A DNA stretch of 63,981 nt, the filler included, from Chrysochromulina tobinii (taxonomy: Eukaryota): the NCBI GenBank assembly GCA_001275005.1. It is 11 parts of 11 records of this genome, joined end to end, with 100 filler letters (N's around TTAATTAATTAA, not from the genome) between each part and the next. Parts side by side here need not be neighbours in the genome. Positions count along the whole stretch, not along the records: positions 1 to 4,008 come from JWZX01000231.1; 10 more parts are not named here. The stretch is one strand, 5' to 3'. Both the position numbers and the translations under genes were made by a program. The notes under the pieces are model-generated. The model saw nothing but the letters and a program-made list of their open reading frames with translations, had not been told where the DNA came from and did no database searches. Below, in pieces: positions 1 through 61,560 of this stretch (positions within the stretch are counted from its first letter, which is position 1; the number at the start of each line of letters is the position of its first letter).

Positions 1-12
1 CTGCCGAGCAAG

Positions 13-3000
13 ATGAGGAAGCAGCAGACCGACGGCACCAGGCTCGAGATCATCAACCAGCTCGCGCAGGTCGACCCCAACATCTGCGAGCAGTATGAGC
101 TCCGGATGACCGCGTTGGGCACCAGCGCGCCCTCCAACATGGACGATGCCGTCGCGCTCATCGAGGAAATCCTCCGCACGAGAGCAGCGCGCGCCAAGCT
201 CGCCGCCCTTTCCGGCGGCGCCAAGCAGCTCGGCCTCGTCGCCGGCGACGCGACCGTCGCCGATCGCGACCCGACCAAGAACAAGCCCGGCGACGAGAAG
301 AAGACCAAGAAGACCAGGCCGCCCCGCCGCCCCGACGGCAGCAAGAAGGGCGAGCTCCTCAAGTGGGTCGAGGGCATGGACGTGTGCAAGTGCGGCGGCA
401 AGCACCTCTACCGCGATTGCACCGACCCAAAGACGAAAGCCTGGTTCGATGCCTCCAAGGCCAAGAGGGACGCCGAGAAGGCCAAGACTGCCCTGGCAGC
501 CGACGTCGCGCCGGCGGCCGCACCAGCATCGGCTCTCGTGTCCGCTGGCGGAGGGGATTACGCCACGACCGCGGTGACCATCTCCGGTGATCACACGATC
601 GACGAGCGCGCCCTCCTCGCCCAACTTTCCGGCTTCTTCAACTCCGCCGCGCCCTCGAAGGTCGTGCACTGGAGCGAGACCGCGAAGGCCGCGCACTCCG
701 CCAACGTTGCTAAGACCAAGGTCATTGATGGCGTCGTGCAGCTCGTCGAGCCATCCCCTGACGAGCTCTCCCTAGCTACCGCTCTTGGGATCGTCACCGC
801 CGACTTTGATCCGAGCAACACCCGTTGCCCCGACTTCGTGCCCGGGTGCTCGGGCACCTGCGCCCGTCAGTACGAGACCGATACCGCCGACAGCGCGAGC
901 TCCGACGATGAACCTGATCCGGCCCCGCGCTGCGAGGAGTGCGCCGACAACCCCGACGAGCGCCTTTTCTCGCGGGTGCTCAAATTCCTGCCGCATTTCT
1001 GGGCGTGCATCGTCACAGGCATGCTCCTCGGGCTGGACCCAATGGATCGAGAGCTACTCGACGACGACGTTCAGCTCATGTTCGTGATCCATGATTGCGT
1101 CGAGGTCAAGCGCGATCACTCGGCCCACACCATCCAGGTACGGTGGCGGCGTCTCAAGGCCCGCCGGGCAGGTGCCTGCCCCCCGCCGCCCACCGAGGGG
1201 GCACAAAAGGGGTCGCCCGCCGACGAAACCGCCGAGTCCGCCGAACAACCCGCCGACGATCCCGCCGCCGAACCCGCCGACCCTTCGCGCGACGATGCGA
1301 CGCGGGCGGCGATGGCTCCGCTACTCATTGCCACGCGTATGGCAGCCGTCCTCGACGCTCGTCGCCGTCAGCGCCTGGCAGCTGGGCCGCCGGCCATCCA
1401 GTGGCTCGCCGCCTCGGCCATCGGCATTATCCTCCTTGCGCTGGTCGCAGGGACGCTCGCTGCGCCCACCTCGGCCTCCATCCATGCCATCGACGGCCCC
1501 ATAGCGGACGGTGACCCTGGCAGCGACGCTGCCCTCCGCTCCGACGCCCTGTCCTCGGTCGCTCATCGGATCTCCGAGGGGCTCATCGCTCGCGCCGCGT
1601 ACCATGTCCTGTTGGCCTTCGTCACCACCGTCTTTACCGTCGCAGTGCTCTGGCCTTCAGCCTTCGCAGCCGTCGCCAGACGTCAGCCCGCAGATGTTAC
1701 TCGAGGCCTTGCGTACGTGATTGCCACACCGATGATCGGCCTCATCAACGGAGCTTGCTCCCTCGGACCCGCCACCGGCCGATCGACGGCCGCCATCTGG
1801 ATCGCTCGGAGCTCGTCGTCCGCGGCCTCGGCCCTCACACGCCTTCGGCGCGCGGCGCCTATCTTTGTCGCCTTGGCCCTTCTCGCATCAGCTCTCCTCA
1901 TCGGTCCAGCTGCCTCTGACTACCACAGCGCCGTTGCCGTCGCCCATGGCACGAACGTCACGCGCATCGACCTGCCATACTACGGCAGATGGATGCCGCA
2001 GGGCGCTACTGCTGACGAGGCCCTCCGGCAGTCCTCCCGGGACCCAGCCGCCCTCGAGGCCCTCGTGGCCGGCGCCGCCAGCAAGCATCCGGCGTCGCCG
2101 ATCGGCATCCTCAAGCTCCACCCCGACTCCGGCTGCACCGGCAGTAACACGCCTCACCTTCACCTGCTCGCCAACCGTCGCCCCTGCGACGAGATCTACT
2201 CGCAAGCGAACGGCAACATCTCAAGGTGCGAGGCCATCGGCGACCTTCCCGTGATCGTGCGCGACAAGCAGGGCGCCACCGTTCAGCTCACCTTCACCAA
2301 CGTGCGCTGCGTGCCCGACTTCAAGTTCTCGCTCCTCTCGGTCAAGCAGCTGTGGAACGAGCAGGGCATCGACGCGCGCTTCTGCGACATCAACGCGCTC
2401 GTCCTCCCGAACCAGTCGGGCCTCATCCCCTACGACCCGGCGCGGCCCCTGTCCACCATCAACGCGGTGCCCTGCGCCCATGTCGCCGCCGCGGCGCACT
2501 GTGCGCCGCCCCCTGCCCCTCAGACGGCACTCGCGTCACTCGGCTTCCACCAGGTCGGCTCGACCTCTCACCTCGCCAAGCTCTCCGGGGTGCAGATCGG
2601 CGCGCTGATGCATCGGCGCAATCACGGCGGTATCCACAAGATCAAGGCGTGCGTGCACGCGTCCAAGGACGGCCCCAAGAACCTCGGCGCCGCGGTTCAG
2701 CCCACGTGCCTCGACTGCGCGGCCACTCGCATCAAGGCCGCCGCGCACTCCGGTCGACGCGAGCCTTGCACCGAGCCCGGCACCCTGCACATCGACCTCA
2801 AGGAGTTCGCGCGCTCGTACGGTGGCTACCAGTACGCGCTCATCGCCGTCGACGAACACACTCGCTACATCTTCACGCAGTGCTTGCGCCACAAGTCGGA
2901 GGCGCTCGACGCCGTCAAGCGCGTCGTGGCCGAGTTCAACGCGATCGTCGGTACCCGCCTCGACGCCGACGGCAAGCCGCTCCCTCGCCCCACCGTCCGC

Positions 3001-3817
3001 ACGATCATGAGCGACCGCGAGGGCAAGCTCATCTCGAACGCGTTCAACGAGTTTCGGGCCGACGCGAGCCTCCACCACTACACGAGCGCCCCACACGACC
3101 ACGACCTCAACGGCATCGCCGAGCGGGCCATCGGAGCTGTGAGCGAGACGGCCGCGGCGCTGCTGCACTCCGCCAACGCGACCGTCCTCGAGTGGCCGTG
3201 GCTCATCCGCTACGCTGTGGACTGGCACAACAGCCTGATCGGCGACACCGGCACCTCGTCGTCCGACCCGCAGATCTCGCCCTTCCAGCGCCTCACTCAC
3301 AAGCTGCCCGCCATCATGGACCTCGCCCGCTACGGCTGCCGCGCCGTCGTGCTCAAGCCGCCCAACCAGCAGAACAAGACTGCGCTCGACTCGCGCGGAT
3401 GGGTGGGCACCTTCTGTGGCCGCTCGGTCAACTCGCCCGGCTGTTGGGACGTCAACTGCAACGGGACCATCGTCAGCAGCTCCAGCGTCCAAGTCGACGA
3501 GGAGCACATGCCGCGCCTTGGCTCTCAGGCGCACCAGCCTCTGCCGCCCACGGCCCCGGCAGCCCGGGCCTCGCCCCCAGACTCCGTGCCGCATCTCGAC
3601 AGCGATCGGCCCGTCGCTCCGGCAGCCCCGTCGGCCGCCCCGATCAACGCGTCCGTGCACCACGAACGGCCCGCGCGCAAGGCACTCTCGCTGCTCAACC
3701 TCTTCAGTGGTCCTTACCATCGAACGGACGGCCTCGCGGCCGCCCTCTCTGCCCATGGCTGGACCCACGTCACTCAGATCGACAATGACGCCGAAGTAGG
3801 GGGGGGCTGGCAACACG
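13..3817 (+). CDS. Copia gag-pol polyprotein (partial); meaningful frame ends at ~3817
   Basis: ORF 13..4056. Zinc knuckle at ~385-420, protease DSG at 2125-2133, integrase core at ~2782-3240. After 3817 this frame reads as Arg-rich off-frame sequence. Confidence 0.9.
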
Positions 3818-4008
3818 TTCTCAGTCTCACGCTTCTTCGACGCCACCGTCGACGGCCACGACTCGGGTCCTCCTGTCGTGCGCGACCACGATCACCCCGA
3901 CGGCGTCCCCGAGCTCGACCCCAAGCACGTCAAGGAGCTCAAAACGTCCAACCTCCTGCTCGAGCGCACCGTCGAGCTCGCGCTCGCCGCACATCGATCT
4001 CCGAGCAA
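3685..4008 (+). pseudogene. C5-cytosine DNA methyltransferase-like domain fused downstream of integrase; internally deleted and frameshifted
   Basis: Frame 1 gives the motif-I-like LSLLNLFSGPYHRTDGLAAALSAHGWTHVTQIDND. Frame 2 from 3812 gives NTFSVSRF...GPPVVRD..HPDG...SNLLLERTVELALAAHRS, which resembles sequence following the PPC motif IV. The contig ends before the expected ENP motif. Confidence 0.7.
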
Positions 4009-4426: not shown

Positions 4427-5467
4427 TTGACGGGGCAGTGCATCACCACGGAGCAAGCTTCAAAGCCGTGGGTGAAGAAAAATTATACGTACTATGACAC
4501 CCTTTTCACTTCGTGGCGCGGCAATTGGCTGGAGCTTGAGGACGACCTTGCGAATCGACGGGAGCAGATCATTGTGGAGCAGACGAATCTTGGTTTGATG
4601 TCGGCGCTTCTCCTCACCATCGCAATTCCTTACATGATGGGTGTTCAAGACTTGAATTTCGACTCGACGGTCAACATGCTGACTCGCGAGAGCGAGGACC
4701 CGGCAAGCGGTGAGGACATGGCGCGCGCGCACCGTGATGTTCTATCCATCGTGTCGTTCCTCTCCTTTGTTGGGTTCATGCTGTCAACCACCCACTCCGT
4801 CTTGACCATGCTCTTCCTGTCCCAACTGACTGGAGTCGTGGAGCCGCGCATCTTTCAAGAGCGCCTCGGCTTTATCAATTCGGCCGGGATCCTCCTTTTC
4901 ATGTTCGGAGTCCTTTTCCTTATGGTGTTAGTCTTTTATCATTTCATCATCTTCGCCTCCTACGTCGCAACCATACTGGTGGGCGTGATCTCGATTGGAA
5001 TCATCGTGTGCGCCTACGTGTTTGGCGTGGCGACGAGGCAGCAGAATGTCCTCTTCAACATCAAGCGGCTGTCGTATACGACAGCGCCAACCACGCTGGA
5101 CCACAAACAGCTCGACGGGTACGCCGTCGAATACTGCGAAAAACCGGATCTCGGCCCTCAGACGATGACAGCTGCAAACCTGGAGGAGTTCATTCGCGAC
5201 CGCCTTGCGAACGACAAGCGCAAGGATAAAAGTGTTTCACGCCCGTCCGAGATTATGTTCTCCGAGGTGACTACTCGGATGATTGAGATGTATGCGACAA
5301 AGATCGTGGATGCCTGCGCTCTACAGGCCATCAAGGACAGCCCGCTCCTAGAGGCGTTCTCTAATGATGATGATAAGCCAAGTGCCATGCTGGACAAGCT
5401 GCTTCGCGCCGCCGAGGATGGTGACAAACTGTGCAACTTGATCACAAAAGGCTCGACAGTGGCGTAG
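4427..5467 (+). CDS. Multi-pass membrane protein of unknown function (true ATG uncertain)
   Basis: 346-aa ORF with about 4 hydrophobic segments (LGLMSALLLTIAI; IVSFLSFVGFML; GILLFMFGVLFLMVLVFYHFIIF; TILVGVISIGIIVCAYVF). Confidence 0.7.
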   Translation: MTGQCITTEQASKPWVKKNYTYYDTLFTSWRGNWLELEDDLANRREQIIVEQTNLGLMSALLLTIAIPYMMGVQDLNFDSTVNMLTRESEDPASGEDMARAHRDVLSIVSFLSFVGFMLSTTHSVLTMLFLSQLTGVVEPRIFQERLGFINSAGILLFMFGVLFLMVLVFYHFIIFASYVATILVGVISIGIIVCAYVFGVATRQQNVLFNIKRLSYTTAPTTLDHKQLDGYAVEYCEKPDLGPQTMTAANLEEFIRDRLANDKRKDKSVSRPSEIMFSEVTTRMIEMYATKIVDACALQAIKDSPLLEAFSNDDDKPSAMLDKLLRAAEDGDKLCNLITKGSTVA

Positions 5468-5502: not shown

Positions 5503-5670
5503 ATCGTGAAGGCCTGCGCTCTACAGGCCATCAAGGAGAGCCCGCTCCTAAGGTCGCTCTCCGATGATGGGCCAAGTACCACGCTGGACAAGCTGGACAA
5601 GCTGCTTGCCGCCGCCAAGGATGGTGACAAACCGTGCAACTTGATCACGAAAGGCTCGATATTGGCGTAG
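5503..5670 (+). repeat. Degenerate tandem duplicate of the 3' end of the 4427-5467 gene
   Basis: 5503-5670 aligns to 5303-5467 (GCCTGCGCTCTACAGGCCATCAAGGA...GGCGTAG) with substitutions and indels. Confidence 0.9.
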
Positions 5671-10861: not shown

Positions 10862-11473
10862 ATGAGTCGCGTGGGGCAGGCGGCAGCGAAGCCTGCGAGT
10901 GCGGTCACGCAGGCGGCCGGGGCGAATGGCACGGTGCTGCGCTACGGCGATCGCGTGCAGCGCCGGTCCGACCATGACTACATGTGGTACGTTGGAACTG
11001 TGGACAAGCTCTTCAACGACGGCGACGTAGCCGTCGCGCTTGACTCGGGCGAGTACTGGCAGGGCGAGGGCGAGGACGTGCACCCGCTGCCGCCCGACCA
11101 TCCCGGCCAGGAGAGCGCTATGGAGATGGGACTCCCGTCTCCGGACGGCCTCGGCACACAGTCGCCAGTGCAGGAGTACCGACCACGCAAGGAAAGCAGA
11201 GCTCGGTTGTCTAGTCAGGGTGCGTCGATGACAATAGATTCGCCCATGGCAGCGGACATCACGTTTGCGGCGCCTCATGGTAGCGCCATGGCCGAAATGC
11301 CCGCATCAGTTGGTGTCCACTCAGGCGGCTCCGCTCCTTTTCAGCCAGCGTTGGGCGGCTTCGTTGTAAGGTCCACCAGCTCTCCAGCACCTCCTGCGGG
11401 CGCAGGCGGGCCGCCGTTCAGCTTTGGAGCGGGAGCGCCCGCGGGTGGATTCACCTTTGGAGCCGAGGGTTAG
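10862..11473 (+). CDS. Hypothetical protein with a Tudor/SH3-like N-terminal barrel and an FxFG-rich tail
   Basis: LRYGDRVQ...WYVGTVDKLFNDGDVAVALDSGE; C-terminal PFSFGAG...GFTFGAEG. Confidence 0.5.
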   Translation: MSRVGQAAAKPASAVTQAAGANGTVLRYGDRVQRRSDHDYMWYVGTVDKLFNDGDVAVALDSGEYWQGEGEDVHPLPPDHPGQESAMEMGLPSPDGLGTQSPVQEYRPRKESRARLSSQGASMTIDSPMAADITFAAPHGSAMAEMPASVGVHSGGSAPFQPALGGFVVRSTSSPAPPAGAGGPPFSFGAGAPAGGFTFGAEG

Positions 11474-11981
11474 GCGGCGTGTACAGCCTTTAGACGCACT
11501 GACCAGTGTGTACTTTCTTAGCGCAAGCGGCCGGACCAGGCGGTCCAGGGCGGAGCCGGAGGGACGCGGCGGGCGCGGGGCCGCCGGGGGCCTGTGGGCA
11601 GTGCTGGAGTCCTGGAGCGCGCCAAGCGGGCCTCTTGCAAGTGACTCGTGGTAATAAACGAGGGTAATAAACGAGACTGTGTACGACCACTCAGTGTACA
11701 CTCAATGCGCGCGCGCGTGGAGTAGTATTGCCGCGGAGCGCGGAGGTGCAGTGGTTAGGCAAGCTCTCGCCCCTGCCGAGCCCGCGCGCGCAGGGCGCGA
11801 GAGGCTTGAACGACTGCTCCTCCCGCTCCTCCGCAGCTGCAGCAAAGAGGCAGGCGCCGCCGTCAGGAGGGCGAAGCTGCGTGCGAGTAGGACACTATCC
11901 CGATCTCCACCGCGAGCTCAACGGCAGCCCTCGCCTCCCCCCGCCGATCGGATCGGGGGGGAGGGAAGGGGGGGGTCCTGA

Positions 11982-12892
11982 CTATTGCTCCAGCGCAGAG
12001 GCGGCTAGGCGCTCATACTCGGCCTGGCGCCGGCTATTCATCTGTCGCAGCTCGTCCATGTTGGGTGGGTCCCAGCACGGAAGAGCTAGGAACTCTGCGA
12101 GCGGCACGCGTCCCCTGCCATGGGGATCGGCAAGCTTCACAAAGTCAGAGAGCTCCTTGGCCGACAGTGGGTTGTCGCCCATCCCCCCCAAGAACGAGCG
12201 CAGCTTGTTCACGTCCACCATTTCGCTGGACGTCGTAAATATCGCCGTCGCATGCTCAATGTCCATGCGGCCCTGTGCATGGGGGGCAGCGGCGGTGGCC
12301 GCGGCCAAAGCGCCACAGTGAGTGAGCCTGAGCCTCGACATGTGGGCGCAAGGAGCGGGGACAGCGCAAGGAGCACGCCCAGGGACGACGGGCTCGTGCC
12401 GCAGTGGTGGGCGCGCACCTCCTGCCCCCCCAACCATCGATGGGCCATCAGCGCGGAGAATTCGCTCCATTCAATGACCCCGTTGCCGTCGACATCGAGC
12501 GCCTGCATGATTGCTCTCACCTGTTCCGGGTTGGGAAACATCCCCAGCTGTCTAAGGACCGCTGTTATCTCTTTGCTGTCACTGTGCACACAAACACGAA
12601 CGGCAACCCAAGCGGGCTTGAGGGCATGCGGGCGAGTGGGGCCGGTGAGGGAACGCGGCAGTTGGGCGGCGTACATCGCGCCGCTGCCGTCGACATCAAA
12701 CTGCCGAAAAGCGGAAGCGAGCTCCTCCTGCTGAGCCGGCGAGAGTAGCTCTACTAGCATCATGCCATTCTCCACAAGCTCTGAGTTTCTTGTTGCCCTC
12801 GTCCTACTTTCTGTCGAGCTGGTAGGAGCCTGATCTTCTGGTGCTGGCGCGACCTGCCTCCACGGCGCACAGCAGCAATCTAGCAACCCCAT
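11982..12892 (-). CDS. Calmodulin/centrin-like EF-hand protein (spliced, 2 introns) with a possible N-terminal acylation motif
   Basis: AFRQFDVDGSGA(I)DSKE, LDVDGNGVIEWSEF, ADPHGRGRVPLAEF. The protein starts MGLLDCCC. Confidence 0.85.
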
Positions 12893-59050: not shown

Positions 59051-59464
59051 AGTCGAGAGCCATGCAACGAGGATTGCCATTCTCCGGATCATCGATGAGA
59101 CCCATGCACACCGGTGGGGATGACAGAGCTTGGAGAGCAAGAGCTTGGAGAGCAGCTCGTCGAGGCGGCCCAGATCCTTCTCTACCGAAGAGGGACTACC
59201 CCAAGCTGCTGGCTTCAATCGACCCGAAGTCGAGCGCCAAATGCAGGCAAGAGGATCATCCAACCCCAGATCATCGATGAGACCCATGCACACCGGTNNN
59301 NNNNNNNNNNNNNNNNNNNNNNNNNNNNNNNNNNNNNNNNNTTAATTAATTAANNNNNNNNNNNNNNNNNNNNNNNNNNNNNNNNNNNNNNNNNNNNGGG
59401 CGTTGACTTCGACCAGACCTGGTCTTCGGCCCTCCGCTACTCTTCAGCGCGCGCGCTCTTTGCA

Positions 59465-60011
59465 GAGTGGACGTCGCTGCGTACATGAGGCAGCCGAGGC
59501 GCTCTTGCAGAGGGCGGATGAGCTCCGGATAGCTCGCCGGGGGAAGAGCGAGCGCGTCGGCGATATGCTTGAGGAAGTCGGACGAGTAGGGCAGCGAGCC
59601 GCGCTGCACCTTCTCAATCGGTCCGTGGGGGAGAAAACGCTCGATGAGCTTCTTCACGTAGGACGTCTGGTGCAGCTTGATAGCGCCATCGGGGAGGTAG
59701 TCTACCTCGATGCCGAGGAGATCTTCCATGGGGCCCTCGTCGGTGATATCCCAGTCGCGAGTGAGAGAGTCCATGAATGTGTTGTAGGCGCAGCCAGAGG
59801 GACCGCGGCCTTCGGCGTTGAGTACGGCTGAGTGCACAATCTGGAGGTTGTCGACGTACACGCCGATGGTAATGATTTCGCCGTCGGGGTGCGTGCGTGT
59901 GAACACGCAGGGGTCGGAGTCGTCGAGGGCGGCGAAGCCTTGCTCGACCAGCCACGCAAATAGCATGCGCTGAAGGCGGCGGCCTGCCTGCTGGATTCCA
60001 TATATGGGTTT
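59465..60011 (-). mobile_element. Copia reverse transcriptase, C-terminal half (inverted relative to the N-terminal half)
   Basis: KPIYGIQQAGR, DPCVF, IGVYVDNL, DEGPMEDLLGIEV, LHQTSYVKKLIERF, LGCLMYAATST. Confidence 0.92.
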
Positions 60012-60747
60012 GTATGCGCACCTGTATTCACACCTCGACGTCATGGAGGCCGCGGTCGCTCAGACGCTCTTAGCCGCTGCTGCCGACGCGCCCTCGCCGA
60101 GAACAGCGACTCTCGACCTGGTGCCCATCTCACCGTGGTCCACTCTCGACGGTAGCTGCGTCCCTCGCAAATCGATGCGGCTTCCCGGCGGCGGCCGCGC
60201 GCTTCCCGTGTTTGTTGCGCTCACGCAAGGCGATGACATTTCCTCGCCCGACGTTCTCGCCAATCTCGCTCTTCTCGGCCAAGCCCTTCGCGCAGATTCT
60301 CCTGGCGCGCCCTCGACTCATCGCGAGGCCGTCCAGGCCGGTCAAATCTGGCTAGACGCCGAGGCCAAGGAGCTCAGCAACCATGCGCGGAACGCCTCGT
60401 GGACTTCGATCCCGCGCAGCGAGGTTCCGAACGATCGTCGCATCCACAAACTGATTTGGGTGTACAAGCTCAAGCGCGACGGCTCTGCCAAGGCGCGCTT
60501 ATGCGTGCAAGGCAACACACTGCAGCCGGGCGTTGACTTCGACCAGACCTGGTCTTCGGCCCTCCGCTACTCTTCAGCGCGCGCGCTCTTTGCCTACGCC
60601 GCGCGCAAAGGTTGCCGAGTGCGCAGTGTGGATCTGGTTGCCGCTTATCTTCAGGGCCGCTTCGTCGACGGTGAGGTCGTCTACTGCTACCTCCCGACCG
60701 GCTACCCCGAACTCGACTCGAATGGCCAGCCCTTGATCGCCCGCGTC
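60012..60747 (+). mobile_element. Copia reverse transcriptase (RVT_2), N-terminal half and upstream linker
   Basis: PSTHREA...W..AE.KEL, WVYKLKRDGSAKARLCVQG, GVDFDQT, VDLVAAYLQG, VYCYLPTGY. Confidence 0.92.
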
Positions 60748-61560
60748 GGGAGCGCGTCGCGAGTGCCGGCCATCTCGAGGCGAAGGGCGGCGCCAGGGGG
60801 CAGGGGTGGAAGAGGCTCAGAGAGATTGGATGCAACGAAGGGAGTGTATGATGGGCCGAATTCGTGCGTGCCCCCAGGCGAGTATTCGGCGGGCGAGGGA
60901 GTGGTCGGATGCGACGGTGGGGGCAAGGGGGCCGGGGGGGGCGAGGGCGTCTCCTCGGGTACGGGTGCAAGCGTCCTGGCGACGTTGGGGTCCGCGCCGA
61001 CAGCGTCAGCCCACTTGGGGCCCCACTCGCGCTTTCGGGGCTGTTTCTTGAAGTAATCGACGGGCACTCGAGTGCGTACGGCGCGCTGAGGGGCGTCGGG
61101 CGAGAGTGCGGACGTGTCGAGCGACGGGAAGGTGATGGGGGAGGCGCGAGGGTCGCGGAGGCCAGTGAAGAGAGAAGGCGGAGATGAGGGCGACAGCTCC
61201 CCCCCGTCGGAGATGGAAGGCCCTTGGGGCTTTGGCGATGCCCCCCCGTCGACTGAGGTCGGCGCCCCCCTGTGAGCGAAGGGCGGCCGCGAGGAGGGCG
61301 GGAAGGGTGGGAGAGGCTGNNNNNNNNNNNNNNNNNNNNNNNNNNNNNNNNNNNNNNNNNNNNTTAATTAATTAANNNNNNNNNNNNNNNNNNNNNNNNN
61401 NNNNNNNNNNNNNNNNNNNGAGCCTTGCTGTTCGCTTCATTGTTCGCAACCGAATGGTCGAAGCGCTCTGCCAGGGACTCGGTGGCATGCGAGCTGGAGC
61501 CAGCTTTTGAGGAGCCCGCCATCGCACACGAAAGCGAAATCTGCGAAAACTTTTCTCGCC

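What the first reader, a model, noticed from the sequence alone, without database searches (positions are those of the whole stretch)
700..2100. A ~500-aa multi-transmembrane insert between Gag and protease of the Copia polyprotein
Seen: the zinc knuckle (~385-420) and protease DSG (2125) are about 570 codons apart. The gap holds a Cys cluster (CPDFVPGCSGTC...CEEC) and 4-5 hydrophobic stretches (FWACIVTGMLLGL; WLAASAIGIILLALVAGTLA; VLLAFVTTVFTVAVLW; LAYVIATPMIGLINGA; IFVALALLASALLIG). Known: Copia gag-PR spacers are normally short and soluble, and env-like genes of Sireviruses and errantiviruses lie after pol as separate ORFs. Inference: a membrane-anchoring or env-like module released by the protease, possibly for assembly on membranes or cell-to-cell transfer.
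Basis: partly seen in the sequence, partly recalled or inferred. Interest (0 to 1): 0.7.

Follow-up and report, generated by a model that had tools for sequence, protein, structure and literature searches.

The report
Membrane module inside algal Copia polyprotein
An algal jumping gene and about twenty distant relatives keep a conserved, predicted membrane-spanning domain between their shell protein and their protease, and its sequence suggests that it likely anchors the shell protein on the endoplasmic reticulum while threading most of the enzyme half into the ER interior, a route not found described for these elements.

Summary
The conserved unit is about 230 aa (nt 1318-2004), not 500: four hydrophobic helices, a basic amphipathic helix and a motif that goes with the protease. 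It is in frame in six close copies, under purifying selection like Gag (pN/pS 0.39), and recurs between Gag and protease in 20 relatives scoring over 100 bits, the aligned ones 16-32% identical. Other relatives lack it. The Cys cluster and FWAC stretch are variable; FWAC is absent from one copy. The MTase-like domain occurs with or without the module. No library names the module. Env and FAST hallmarks fail. Charge bias favours three crossings in 18 of 18 members, putting Pol on the lumenal side. Pol of module-bearing elements holds 2.3 times the expected N-x-T sequons, against 1.2 in module-less relatives and none in excess on the Gag side. Only 3-4 independent lineage pairs exist, and the window's own family is not significant alone. 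Best reading: an ER anchor that routes most Pol into the lumen. A new variant of Copia; mechanism inferred, untested.

The parts
1..225 (+). C-terminal part of Gag core (the ORF starts 226 codons upstream, outside the window)
   Evidence: L001 holds an identical copy with the start; pN/pS 0.39
385..420 (+). Gag zinc knuckle
496..1305 (+). Variable, low-complexity spacer with Cys cluster (826-942) and acidic linker; not part of the conserved module
   Evidence: pN/pS 0.43-0.76, many in-frame indels
955..1203 (+). Family-specific FWAC segment, 58% identical over 90 aa to a stretch of P0160; absent from L006
1138..2001 (+). 864-nt in-frame GT..AG stretch missing from the NCBI protein model P0002; no such joint seen in RNA contigs
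1318..2004 (+). Conserved membrane module, aa 440-668
1405..1461 (+). H1, strong predicted transmembrane helix, basic residues before it
   Evidence: KD 2.38; 18 of 18 members at 1.6 or more; N-flank more basic in 16 of 18
1606..1653 (+). H2, predicted transmembrane helix
   Evidence: 19 of 22 members at KD 1.6 or more
1696..1764 (+). H3, marginal Pro-kinked helix (the Pro is the one nearly invariant column)
   Evidence: 6 of 22 at KD 1.6 or more
1804..1857 (+). Basic amphipathic helix before H4
   Evidence: hydrophobic moment 1.26 vs 0.67 shuffled, 0 of 500 shuffles as high
1858..1905 (+). H4, short hydrophobic helix, predicted N-in/C-out, signal-anchor-like
   Evidence: N-flank more basic than C-flank in 21 of 22; 16 of 22 at KD 1.6 or more
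1954..1962 (+). N-V-T sequon in the linker after H4
   Evidence: 13 of 22 members have a sequon in this linker, 5.4 expected
1969..2004 (+). Conserved L-P-Y-x-G-x-W motif, also kept by several module-less relatives; likely packs on the protease
   Evidence: pLDDT 45-47 without, 80-84 with the protease
2125..2367 (+). Retropepsin protease (PF22936)
   Evidence: pN/pS 0.12
2779..3513 (+). Integrase core (PF00665) and SH3-like domain (PF25597)
3676..4008 (+). Start of MTase-like domain, broken in this copy by a frameshifting deletion at 3810-3817
   Evidence: named from recalled C5-MTase motifs, no library hit

Best explanation
This is a conserved, predicted membrane-spanning module inside the single Gag-Pol polyprotein of a clade of algal Copia retrotransposons, and it likely inserts into the ER with three crossings, so that Gag would stay anchored on the cytosolic face while most Pol would be threaded into the lumen and N-glycosylated. 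Shown: position, conservation, constraint, hydrophobicity, charge bias, sequon excess in Pol but not Gag. Inferred: H1 goes in-to-out, H2 out-to-in, the marginal H3 and the basic helix lie on the cytosolic surface, H4 acts as an internal signal-anchor. Inferred function: the membrane nucleates particle assembly and acts as a Gag:Pol dosage valve in an element with no frameshift or stop between gag and pol; usable Pol would come from a minority of chains in which H3 crosses and H4 flips, or from chains pulled back out of the ER, and the protease would then trim the module away.
For: Module in 20 relatives over 100 bits, always just before the protease; pN/pS 0.39. K+R bias favours 3 over 4 crossings in 18 of 18; H4 N-flank more basic in 21 of 22. 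Sequons after H4: 14 vs 6.1 expected, p 0.0004; clade-thinned 10 vs 4.9, p 0.016; held-out 3 rows 5 vs 1.5, p 0.016; 11 of the 13 carriers have their first sequon 16-31 residues past H4. Pol N-x-T 2.33 times expected in 21 module-bearing rows vs 1.20 in 17 module-less rows, N-x-S 1.27 vs 1.19; N-x-T ranks 1 of 340 residue pairs by distinct columns in bearers, 42 of 354 in non-bearers; upstream of H1 12 vs 12.2 (15 rows). In the nested loss, N-x-T is 2.26 in four bearers vs 0.74 in six module-less sisters, p 0.002. Real glycoproteomes show N-x-T ratios of 1.6-2.0 (PMC3613688, passages). Ty1 Gag is reported to pass through the ER lumen and ER targeting nucleates assembly sites (PMC3945221, abstract and one section).
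Against: All topology is inferred from charge counts and scales; no predictor was run. Only 3 (starred branches) to 4 independent pairs; sign test not significant. Two of four lineage contrasts show no N-x-T difference (1.67 vs 1.48; 1.59 vs 1.84), and the window's own family alone gives 12 vs 7.1, P 0.057. The sequon idea arose after looking at the alignment, and control motifs also reached p 0.0045-0.009 in single regions. One recurrent sequon before the protease may be part of a cleavage motif. H2 has more basic residues before than after it. H4 is short (13-19 aligned residues) and could be re-entrant. Outgroup elements with other hydrophobic spacers rank N-x-T only 58 of 343. Module-less single-ORF relatives exist, so the module is not required. 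Lumenal Pol cannot be packaged without an extra, unshown step.
Confidence: 0.45

Rival explanations
1. Plain membrane anchor with an even number of crossings (four helices, or H1+H2 with H3 and H4 as surface wedges): Gag and Pol both stay cytosolic, particles assemble on a membrane, the protease cuts the module out.
For: Simplest route to packaging Pol; H4 short and H3 marginal; the motif after H4 goes with the protease and survives in module-less elements.
Against: Four crossings lose the charge test in 18 of 18; does not explain N-x-T rank 1 of 340 in Pol with none on the Gag side.
Confidence: 0.28
2. Splicing switch: the module sits in an optional in-frame intron; spliced RNA gives soluble Gag-Pol, unspliced RNA gives membrane-bound Gag.
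For: NCBI model P0002 lacks exactly aa 380-666, bounded by GT and AG; both sites are kept in L001-L005; Copia elements EVADE and BARE1 set Gag:Pol by splicing (PMC12786077, passages).
Against: No such joint in contigs of 6 RNA runs, while contigs cross the sites unspliced (X12 1071-2240, X17 1422-2791, X14 1397-2259); the donor lies in the segment that L006 lacks; lower GC3 there can mislead a gene finder. Contigs drop rare forms.
Confidence: 0.1
3. Env-like module: it coats budding particles and mediates transfer between cells.
For: Multi-helix membrane protein with a predicted glycosylated outside tail; env-less elements with small membrane proteins do move between cells (10.1101/2025.03.14.642691, passages).
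Against: No separate ORF; outside loop about 58 aa; cysteine under 1% of loop residues; furin-type site in 4 of 22; fails sORF2/FAST criteria.
Confidence: 0.07
4. Passenger: captured sequence kept only because the frame must stay open.
For: Lost or absent in several lineages; neighbouring spacer is nearly neutral (0.76).
Against: pN/pS 0.39 and no indel in the four spanning copies; helix layout kept at 16-32% identity.
Confidence: 0.03

Closest known systems
Ty1/Copia LTR retrotransposons (Pseudoviridae); yeast Ty1 ER transit (PMC3945221)
   Same: Gag-PR-IN-RT-RH order, LTRs, 5-bp target duplication; reported SRP/ER targeting that nucleates assembly sites.
   Different: Ty1 has no dedicated multi-helix module, it is Gag that is reported to enter the lumen, and the authors found no N-glycosylation; here Pol is the predicted lumenal part.
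Env-like ORFs of Sireviruses, Athila, errantiviruses, bdelloid ORF3 (PMC7264820, PMC5408684)
   Same: Retrotransposon-encoded transmembrane segments of uncertain function.
   Different: Those are separate ORFs, mostly after pol; this is in frame between Gag and protease.
sORF2/FAST-like proteins of MDG1 elements (10.1101/2025.03.14.642691)
   Same: Membrane helix next to a polybasic, amphipathic stretch in an env-less element.
   Different: sORF2 is a separate 60-210 aa, single-pass, myristoylated, N-out protein; here the basic patch precedes the last of four helices inside a polyprotein.
Rickettsial APRc retropepsin (PMC4140852)
   Same: Three predicted membrane helices ahead of a self-releasing retropepsin, N-in and protease-out.
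   Different: Bacterial stand-alone enzyme; no sequence or family match; analogy only.
DNMT-carrying retrotransposons (PMC5890265, PMC12344493)
   Same: MTase-like domain in Pol; the 2025 paper mentions Copia examples.
   Different: No membrane module mentioned in the passages searched; MTase-like domain and module vary independently here.
Diatom CoDi-type elements with a helix module (scan note e1-7561898, unchecked)
   Same: Hydrophobic helices and a basic stretch between nucleocapsid and protease.
   Different: Homology not tested; the CoDi paper (PMC2806351) has no hit for transmembrane, hydrophobic or signal peptide.

Membership tests
Ty1/Copia | Order protease-integrase-RT-RNase H, RVT_2-type RT | tested here: met
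   L002 single ORF of 2557 aa; the window holds PR and IN
Ty1/Copia | Paired LTRs with target-site duplication | tested here: met
   L001: identical LTRs of about 313 bp, 5-bp duplication
Ty1/Copia | Usual TG...CA LTR ends (recalled) | tested here: not met
   Ends read CGT...ACG in L001 and L002; an atypical trait, not an exclusion
Ty1/Copia | tRNA primer-binding site after the 5' LTR | not tested
   TGGT follows the LTR; not matched to a tRNA
Retroviral/errantiviral or Sirevirus env(-like) | Separate ORF downstream of pol | tested here: not met
   In frame between Gag and protease
Retroviral/errantiviral or Sirevirus env(-like) | Large ectodomain with conserved furin site and cysteines | tested here: not met
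   Loop median 58 aa; furin-type site in 4 of 22; Cys under 1%
Retroviral/errantiviral or Sirevirus env(-like) | Fusion-protein fold | tested here: inconclusive
   Model pTM 0.49; only generic helical matches, best Z 7.8
sORF2/FAST | Short separate ORF, one TM, N-myristoyl motif, N-out | tested here: not met
   Internal, four hydrophobic helices, no free N-terminus
sORF2/FAST | Cell-cell fusion activity | not testable with these tools
   Needs expression
ER-lumenal glycoprotein (Pol part) | N-x-T excess over composition, greater than N-x-S | tested here: met
   2.33 vs 1.27 pooled over 21 rows; not significant for the window's family alone
ER-lumenal glycoprotein (Pol part) | Actual glycan occupancy and lumenal location | not testable with these tools
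   Needs glycoproteomics or protease protection
DNMT-carrying retrotransposon | C5-MTase domain in Pol | tested here: inconclusive
   Recalled motifs present in L002; no Pfam, NCBIfam, PHROG or PDB match

The most novel reading that the evidence does not exclude
A Copia clade whose Pol is an ER-lumenal glycoprotein: an internal three-pass signal module splits one polyprotein across the membrane, Gag outside and Pol inside, and the element uses topology switching or ERAD-type retrotranslocation (in algae with a chloroplast ER, possibly that route) to meter and time its enzymes, a new solution to Gag:Pol control in single-ORF retroelements.
Probability: 0.4. Interest if true: 0.85.

Novelty: new variant of a known kind. 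Interest (0 to 1): 0.66.

Why it matters
LTR retrotransposon polyproteins are treated as soluble, and their membrane proteins as separate env-like ORFs. A conserved multi-helix domain inside Gag-Pol, with a selection signature pointing to lumenal Pol, would show a retroelement using the secretory pathway for its enzymes. It gives a simple test of how single-ORF elements make more Gag than Pol and of why Ty1-type elements need the ER, with natural module-less sister lineages as controls.

Tried and rejected
Naming the module: Pfam (only COX15 at E 0.003, far below cutoff, in 1 of 23 rows), PHROGs, NCBIfam and PDB sequence searches gave nothing; Foldseek on PDB and BFVD gave no E under 0.001 and VIA only generic helical matches; this does not show a new fold. 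A profile search of longer proteins returned only a known member, weak evidence. ESM Atlas was unavailable. Homodimer prediction: no verdict, alignment not used, no evidence either way. IMG/VR held no relative. No host genome was held. N-to-D editing after deglycosylation: not supported, Asp opposite 15 of 105 sequon columns vs 26 of 188 other Asn columns. An ASAF-like motif at the end of H4 (plastid-signal motif, recalled) occurs in 7 of 22 rows but not in the window copy: weak lead only. Link to the MTase-like domain rejected. FWAC as fifth helix rejected. RNA contigs cover the module but cannot show strand, level or absence of splicing; X18 raw reads were too sparse (8 reads). The careful tree did not finish; the quick tree was used.

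Full report
Setting. The window is a chain of contigs joined by N linkers; the first piece (1-4008) is one open frame. Its nearest named protein is a Chrysochromulina tobinii 'retrotransposon like protein', 95-97% identical, so the host is likely that haptophyte or a close relative. Locus L001 holds an identical copy with both LTRs (100% identical, 5-bp target duplication). L002 holds an intact relative: one ORF of 2557 aa, Gag, module, protease, integrase, MTase-like domain, RT, RNase H. The window's copy has a frameshifting deletion in the MTase-like domain and, in L001, a further insertion of about 1.2 kb in RT.

Observation. The gap has two halves. The first (aa 166-435) is variable: pN/pS 0.43-0.76, many in-frame indels, and the FWAC segment is missing from L006; that segment is 58% identical to part of an unrelated-looking protein, P0160. 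The second (aa 440-668) is the module: pN/pS 0.39 over 230 codons among L001-L006, equal to Gag core, P 4.7e-9, against 0.12 for protease and 0.06 for integrase. L008 lacks most of it through a 649-nt deletion.

Family. A protease-integrase search gave 67 proteins and a representative search 301, of which 150 were listed. A profile seeded on 11 hand-picked modules hit 34 of 214 stored proteins, 21 of them over 100 bits including the window's; later scores are partly circular. The 21 non-family rows of alignment A2 are 16-32% identical to the window. P0005 and P0006 are divergent members (17.0 and 27.2 bits vs shuffle maxima 12.6 and 12.4). Wherever the protease is present the module lies just before it. 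Many relatives with Gag and protease in one frame have no module. On a quick 66-row protease-integrase tree the label needed 3 changes against 12.8 shuffled, 4 after reclassifying (38 rows); one module-less clade is nested among bearers on a starred branch, which reads as a loss. Rows that begin close to the protease were left as unknown. The MTase-like domain is in 18 of 19 bearers and 10 of 13 non-bearers long enough to tell.

Anatomy. H1 is strong (median KD 2.64), H2 and H4 moderate (1.89, 1.86), H3 marginal (1.51) with the one nearly invariant Pro; loops are about 58, 14 and 32 aa, the last a basic amphipathic helix. AlphaFold2 gives an all-helical module (pLDDT 74, pTM 0.49); with the protease attached, the L-P-Y-x-G-x-W motif rises from pLDDT 45-47 to 80-84, so it likely belongs with the protease, and several module-less relatives keep it.

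Topology. Gag has no evident signal peptide, so I take it as cytosolic (inference). Counting K+R beside each helix, three crossings (H1, H2, H4) beat four in 18 of 18 full modules, and H4 is more basic before than after in 21 of 22. That puts the protease side in the lumen. I tested this with N-glycosylation sequons, an idea formed after seeing the alignment. After H4: 14 vs 6.1 expected; loop 1, loop 3 and the 90 aa before the module show no excess. Three held-out rows agree. Across Pol, 21 bearers have N-x-T at 2.33 and N-x-S at 1.27 times expectation, 17 non-bearers 1.20 and 1.19; per-element p 0.0017, ignoring relatedness. By distinct alignment columns N-x-T ranks 1 of 340 pairs in bearers (ranks 1-6 in 30 subsets) and 42 of 354 in non-bearers (ranks 14-199). 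Upstream of H1 there is no excess. A preference for N-x-T of 1.6-2.0 marks real glycoproteomes (PMC3613688, passages; it cites Cui 2009, which I could not see). Against: only 3-4 independent pairs; two lineage contrasts are clear (p 0.002, 0.012) and two are null; the window's family alone is 12 vs 7.1, P 0.057; five outgroup rows with other hydrophobic spacers give N-x-T 1.91 pooled but rank 58 of 343.

Mechanism. Most likely the module is an ER anchor that leaves Gag on the cytosolic face and sends most Pol into the lumen, where glycans would ease folding or disposal; usable Pol would come from chains in which H3 crosses, or from retrotranslocation. This would both nucleate particles on the ER and give excess Gag from a single ORF. 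Ty1 offers a precedent for ER transit (PMC3945221, abstract and section 16). Every step after the charge and sequon counts is inference (0.45). A plain anchor with Pol cytosolic remains (0.28). A splice switch is suggested by P0002, which lacks aa 380-666 between GT and AG, but no joint appeared in 6 RNA runs whose contigs cross the sites (0.10). Env-like transfer has little support (0.07).

Literature. Searches for such a module listed nothing describing it; the library lacks most subscription journals and Repbase Reports, and I read no supplements, so a brief earlier mention may exist. Seen as passages: PMC5890265, PMC12344493, PMC9998398, PMC13213038, PMC5408684, PMC12786077, PMC12477816, PMC4140852, 10.1101/2025.03.14.642691; first third of PMC7264820; a term search with no hits in PMC2806351. 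One unchecked scan note reports a similar layout in diatom elements; it is a lead, not support.

Verdict. Real, conserved, constrained and unnamed; a new variant of Copia, with a surprising but unproven topology. Interest 0.66.

Noticed in passing
L001 3558-3870 and 12700-13012; L002: LTR ends read CGT...ACG instead of the usual TG...CA, with a 5-bp target duplication.
   Followed up: partly
L002 RT and relatives: The RT catalytic motif reads YVDN (once YTDN) instead of YVDD in the main clade, with or without the module; outgroup rows keep DD.
   Followed up: no
window 955-1203: The FWAC segment is shared at 58% with P0160, which by recalled motifs looks like a tyrosine-recombinase retroelement protein (no library hit); it ends in an IQ-like calmodulin-binding motif (recalled pattern).
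   Followed up: partly
window 3810-3817; L001 about 11001-12174: This copy has a 92-nt frameshifting deletion in the MTase-like domain and a 1.2-kb insertion in RT, yet identical LTRs: young but defective.
   Followed up: partly
P0065, P0200, P0203, P0155, P0061: Outgroup Copia elements carry different hydrophobic spacers before the protease that the module profile does not recognise.
   Followed up: partly
window 59399-61103: RT fragments of a second, 51-81% identical Copia element on another contig.
   Followed up: no
window 4588-5467: An ORF with hydrophobic stretches and a duplicated tail (5311-5467 vs 5503-5670), likely a host membrane protein; judged by eye.
   Followed up: no
P0012, P0013: Relatives lacking both the module and the MTase-like domain, showing both accessories are dispensable.
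   Followed up: partly
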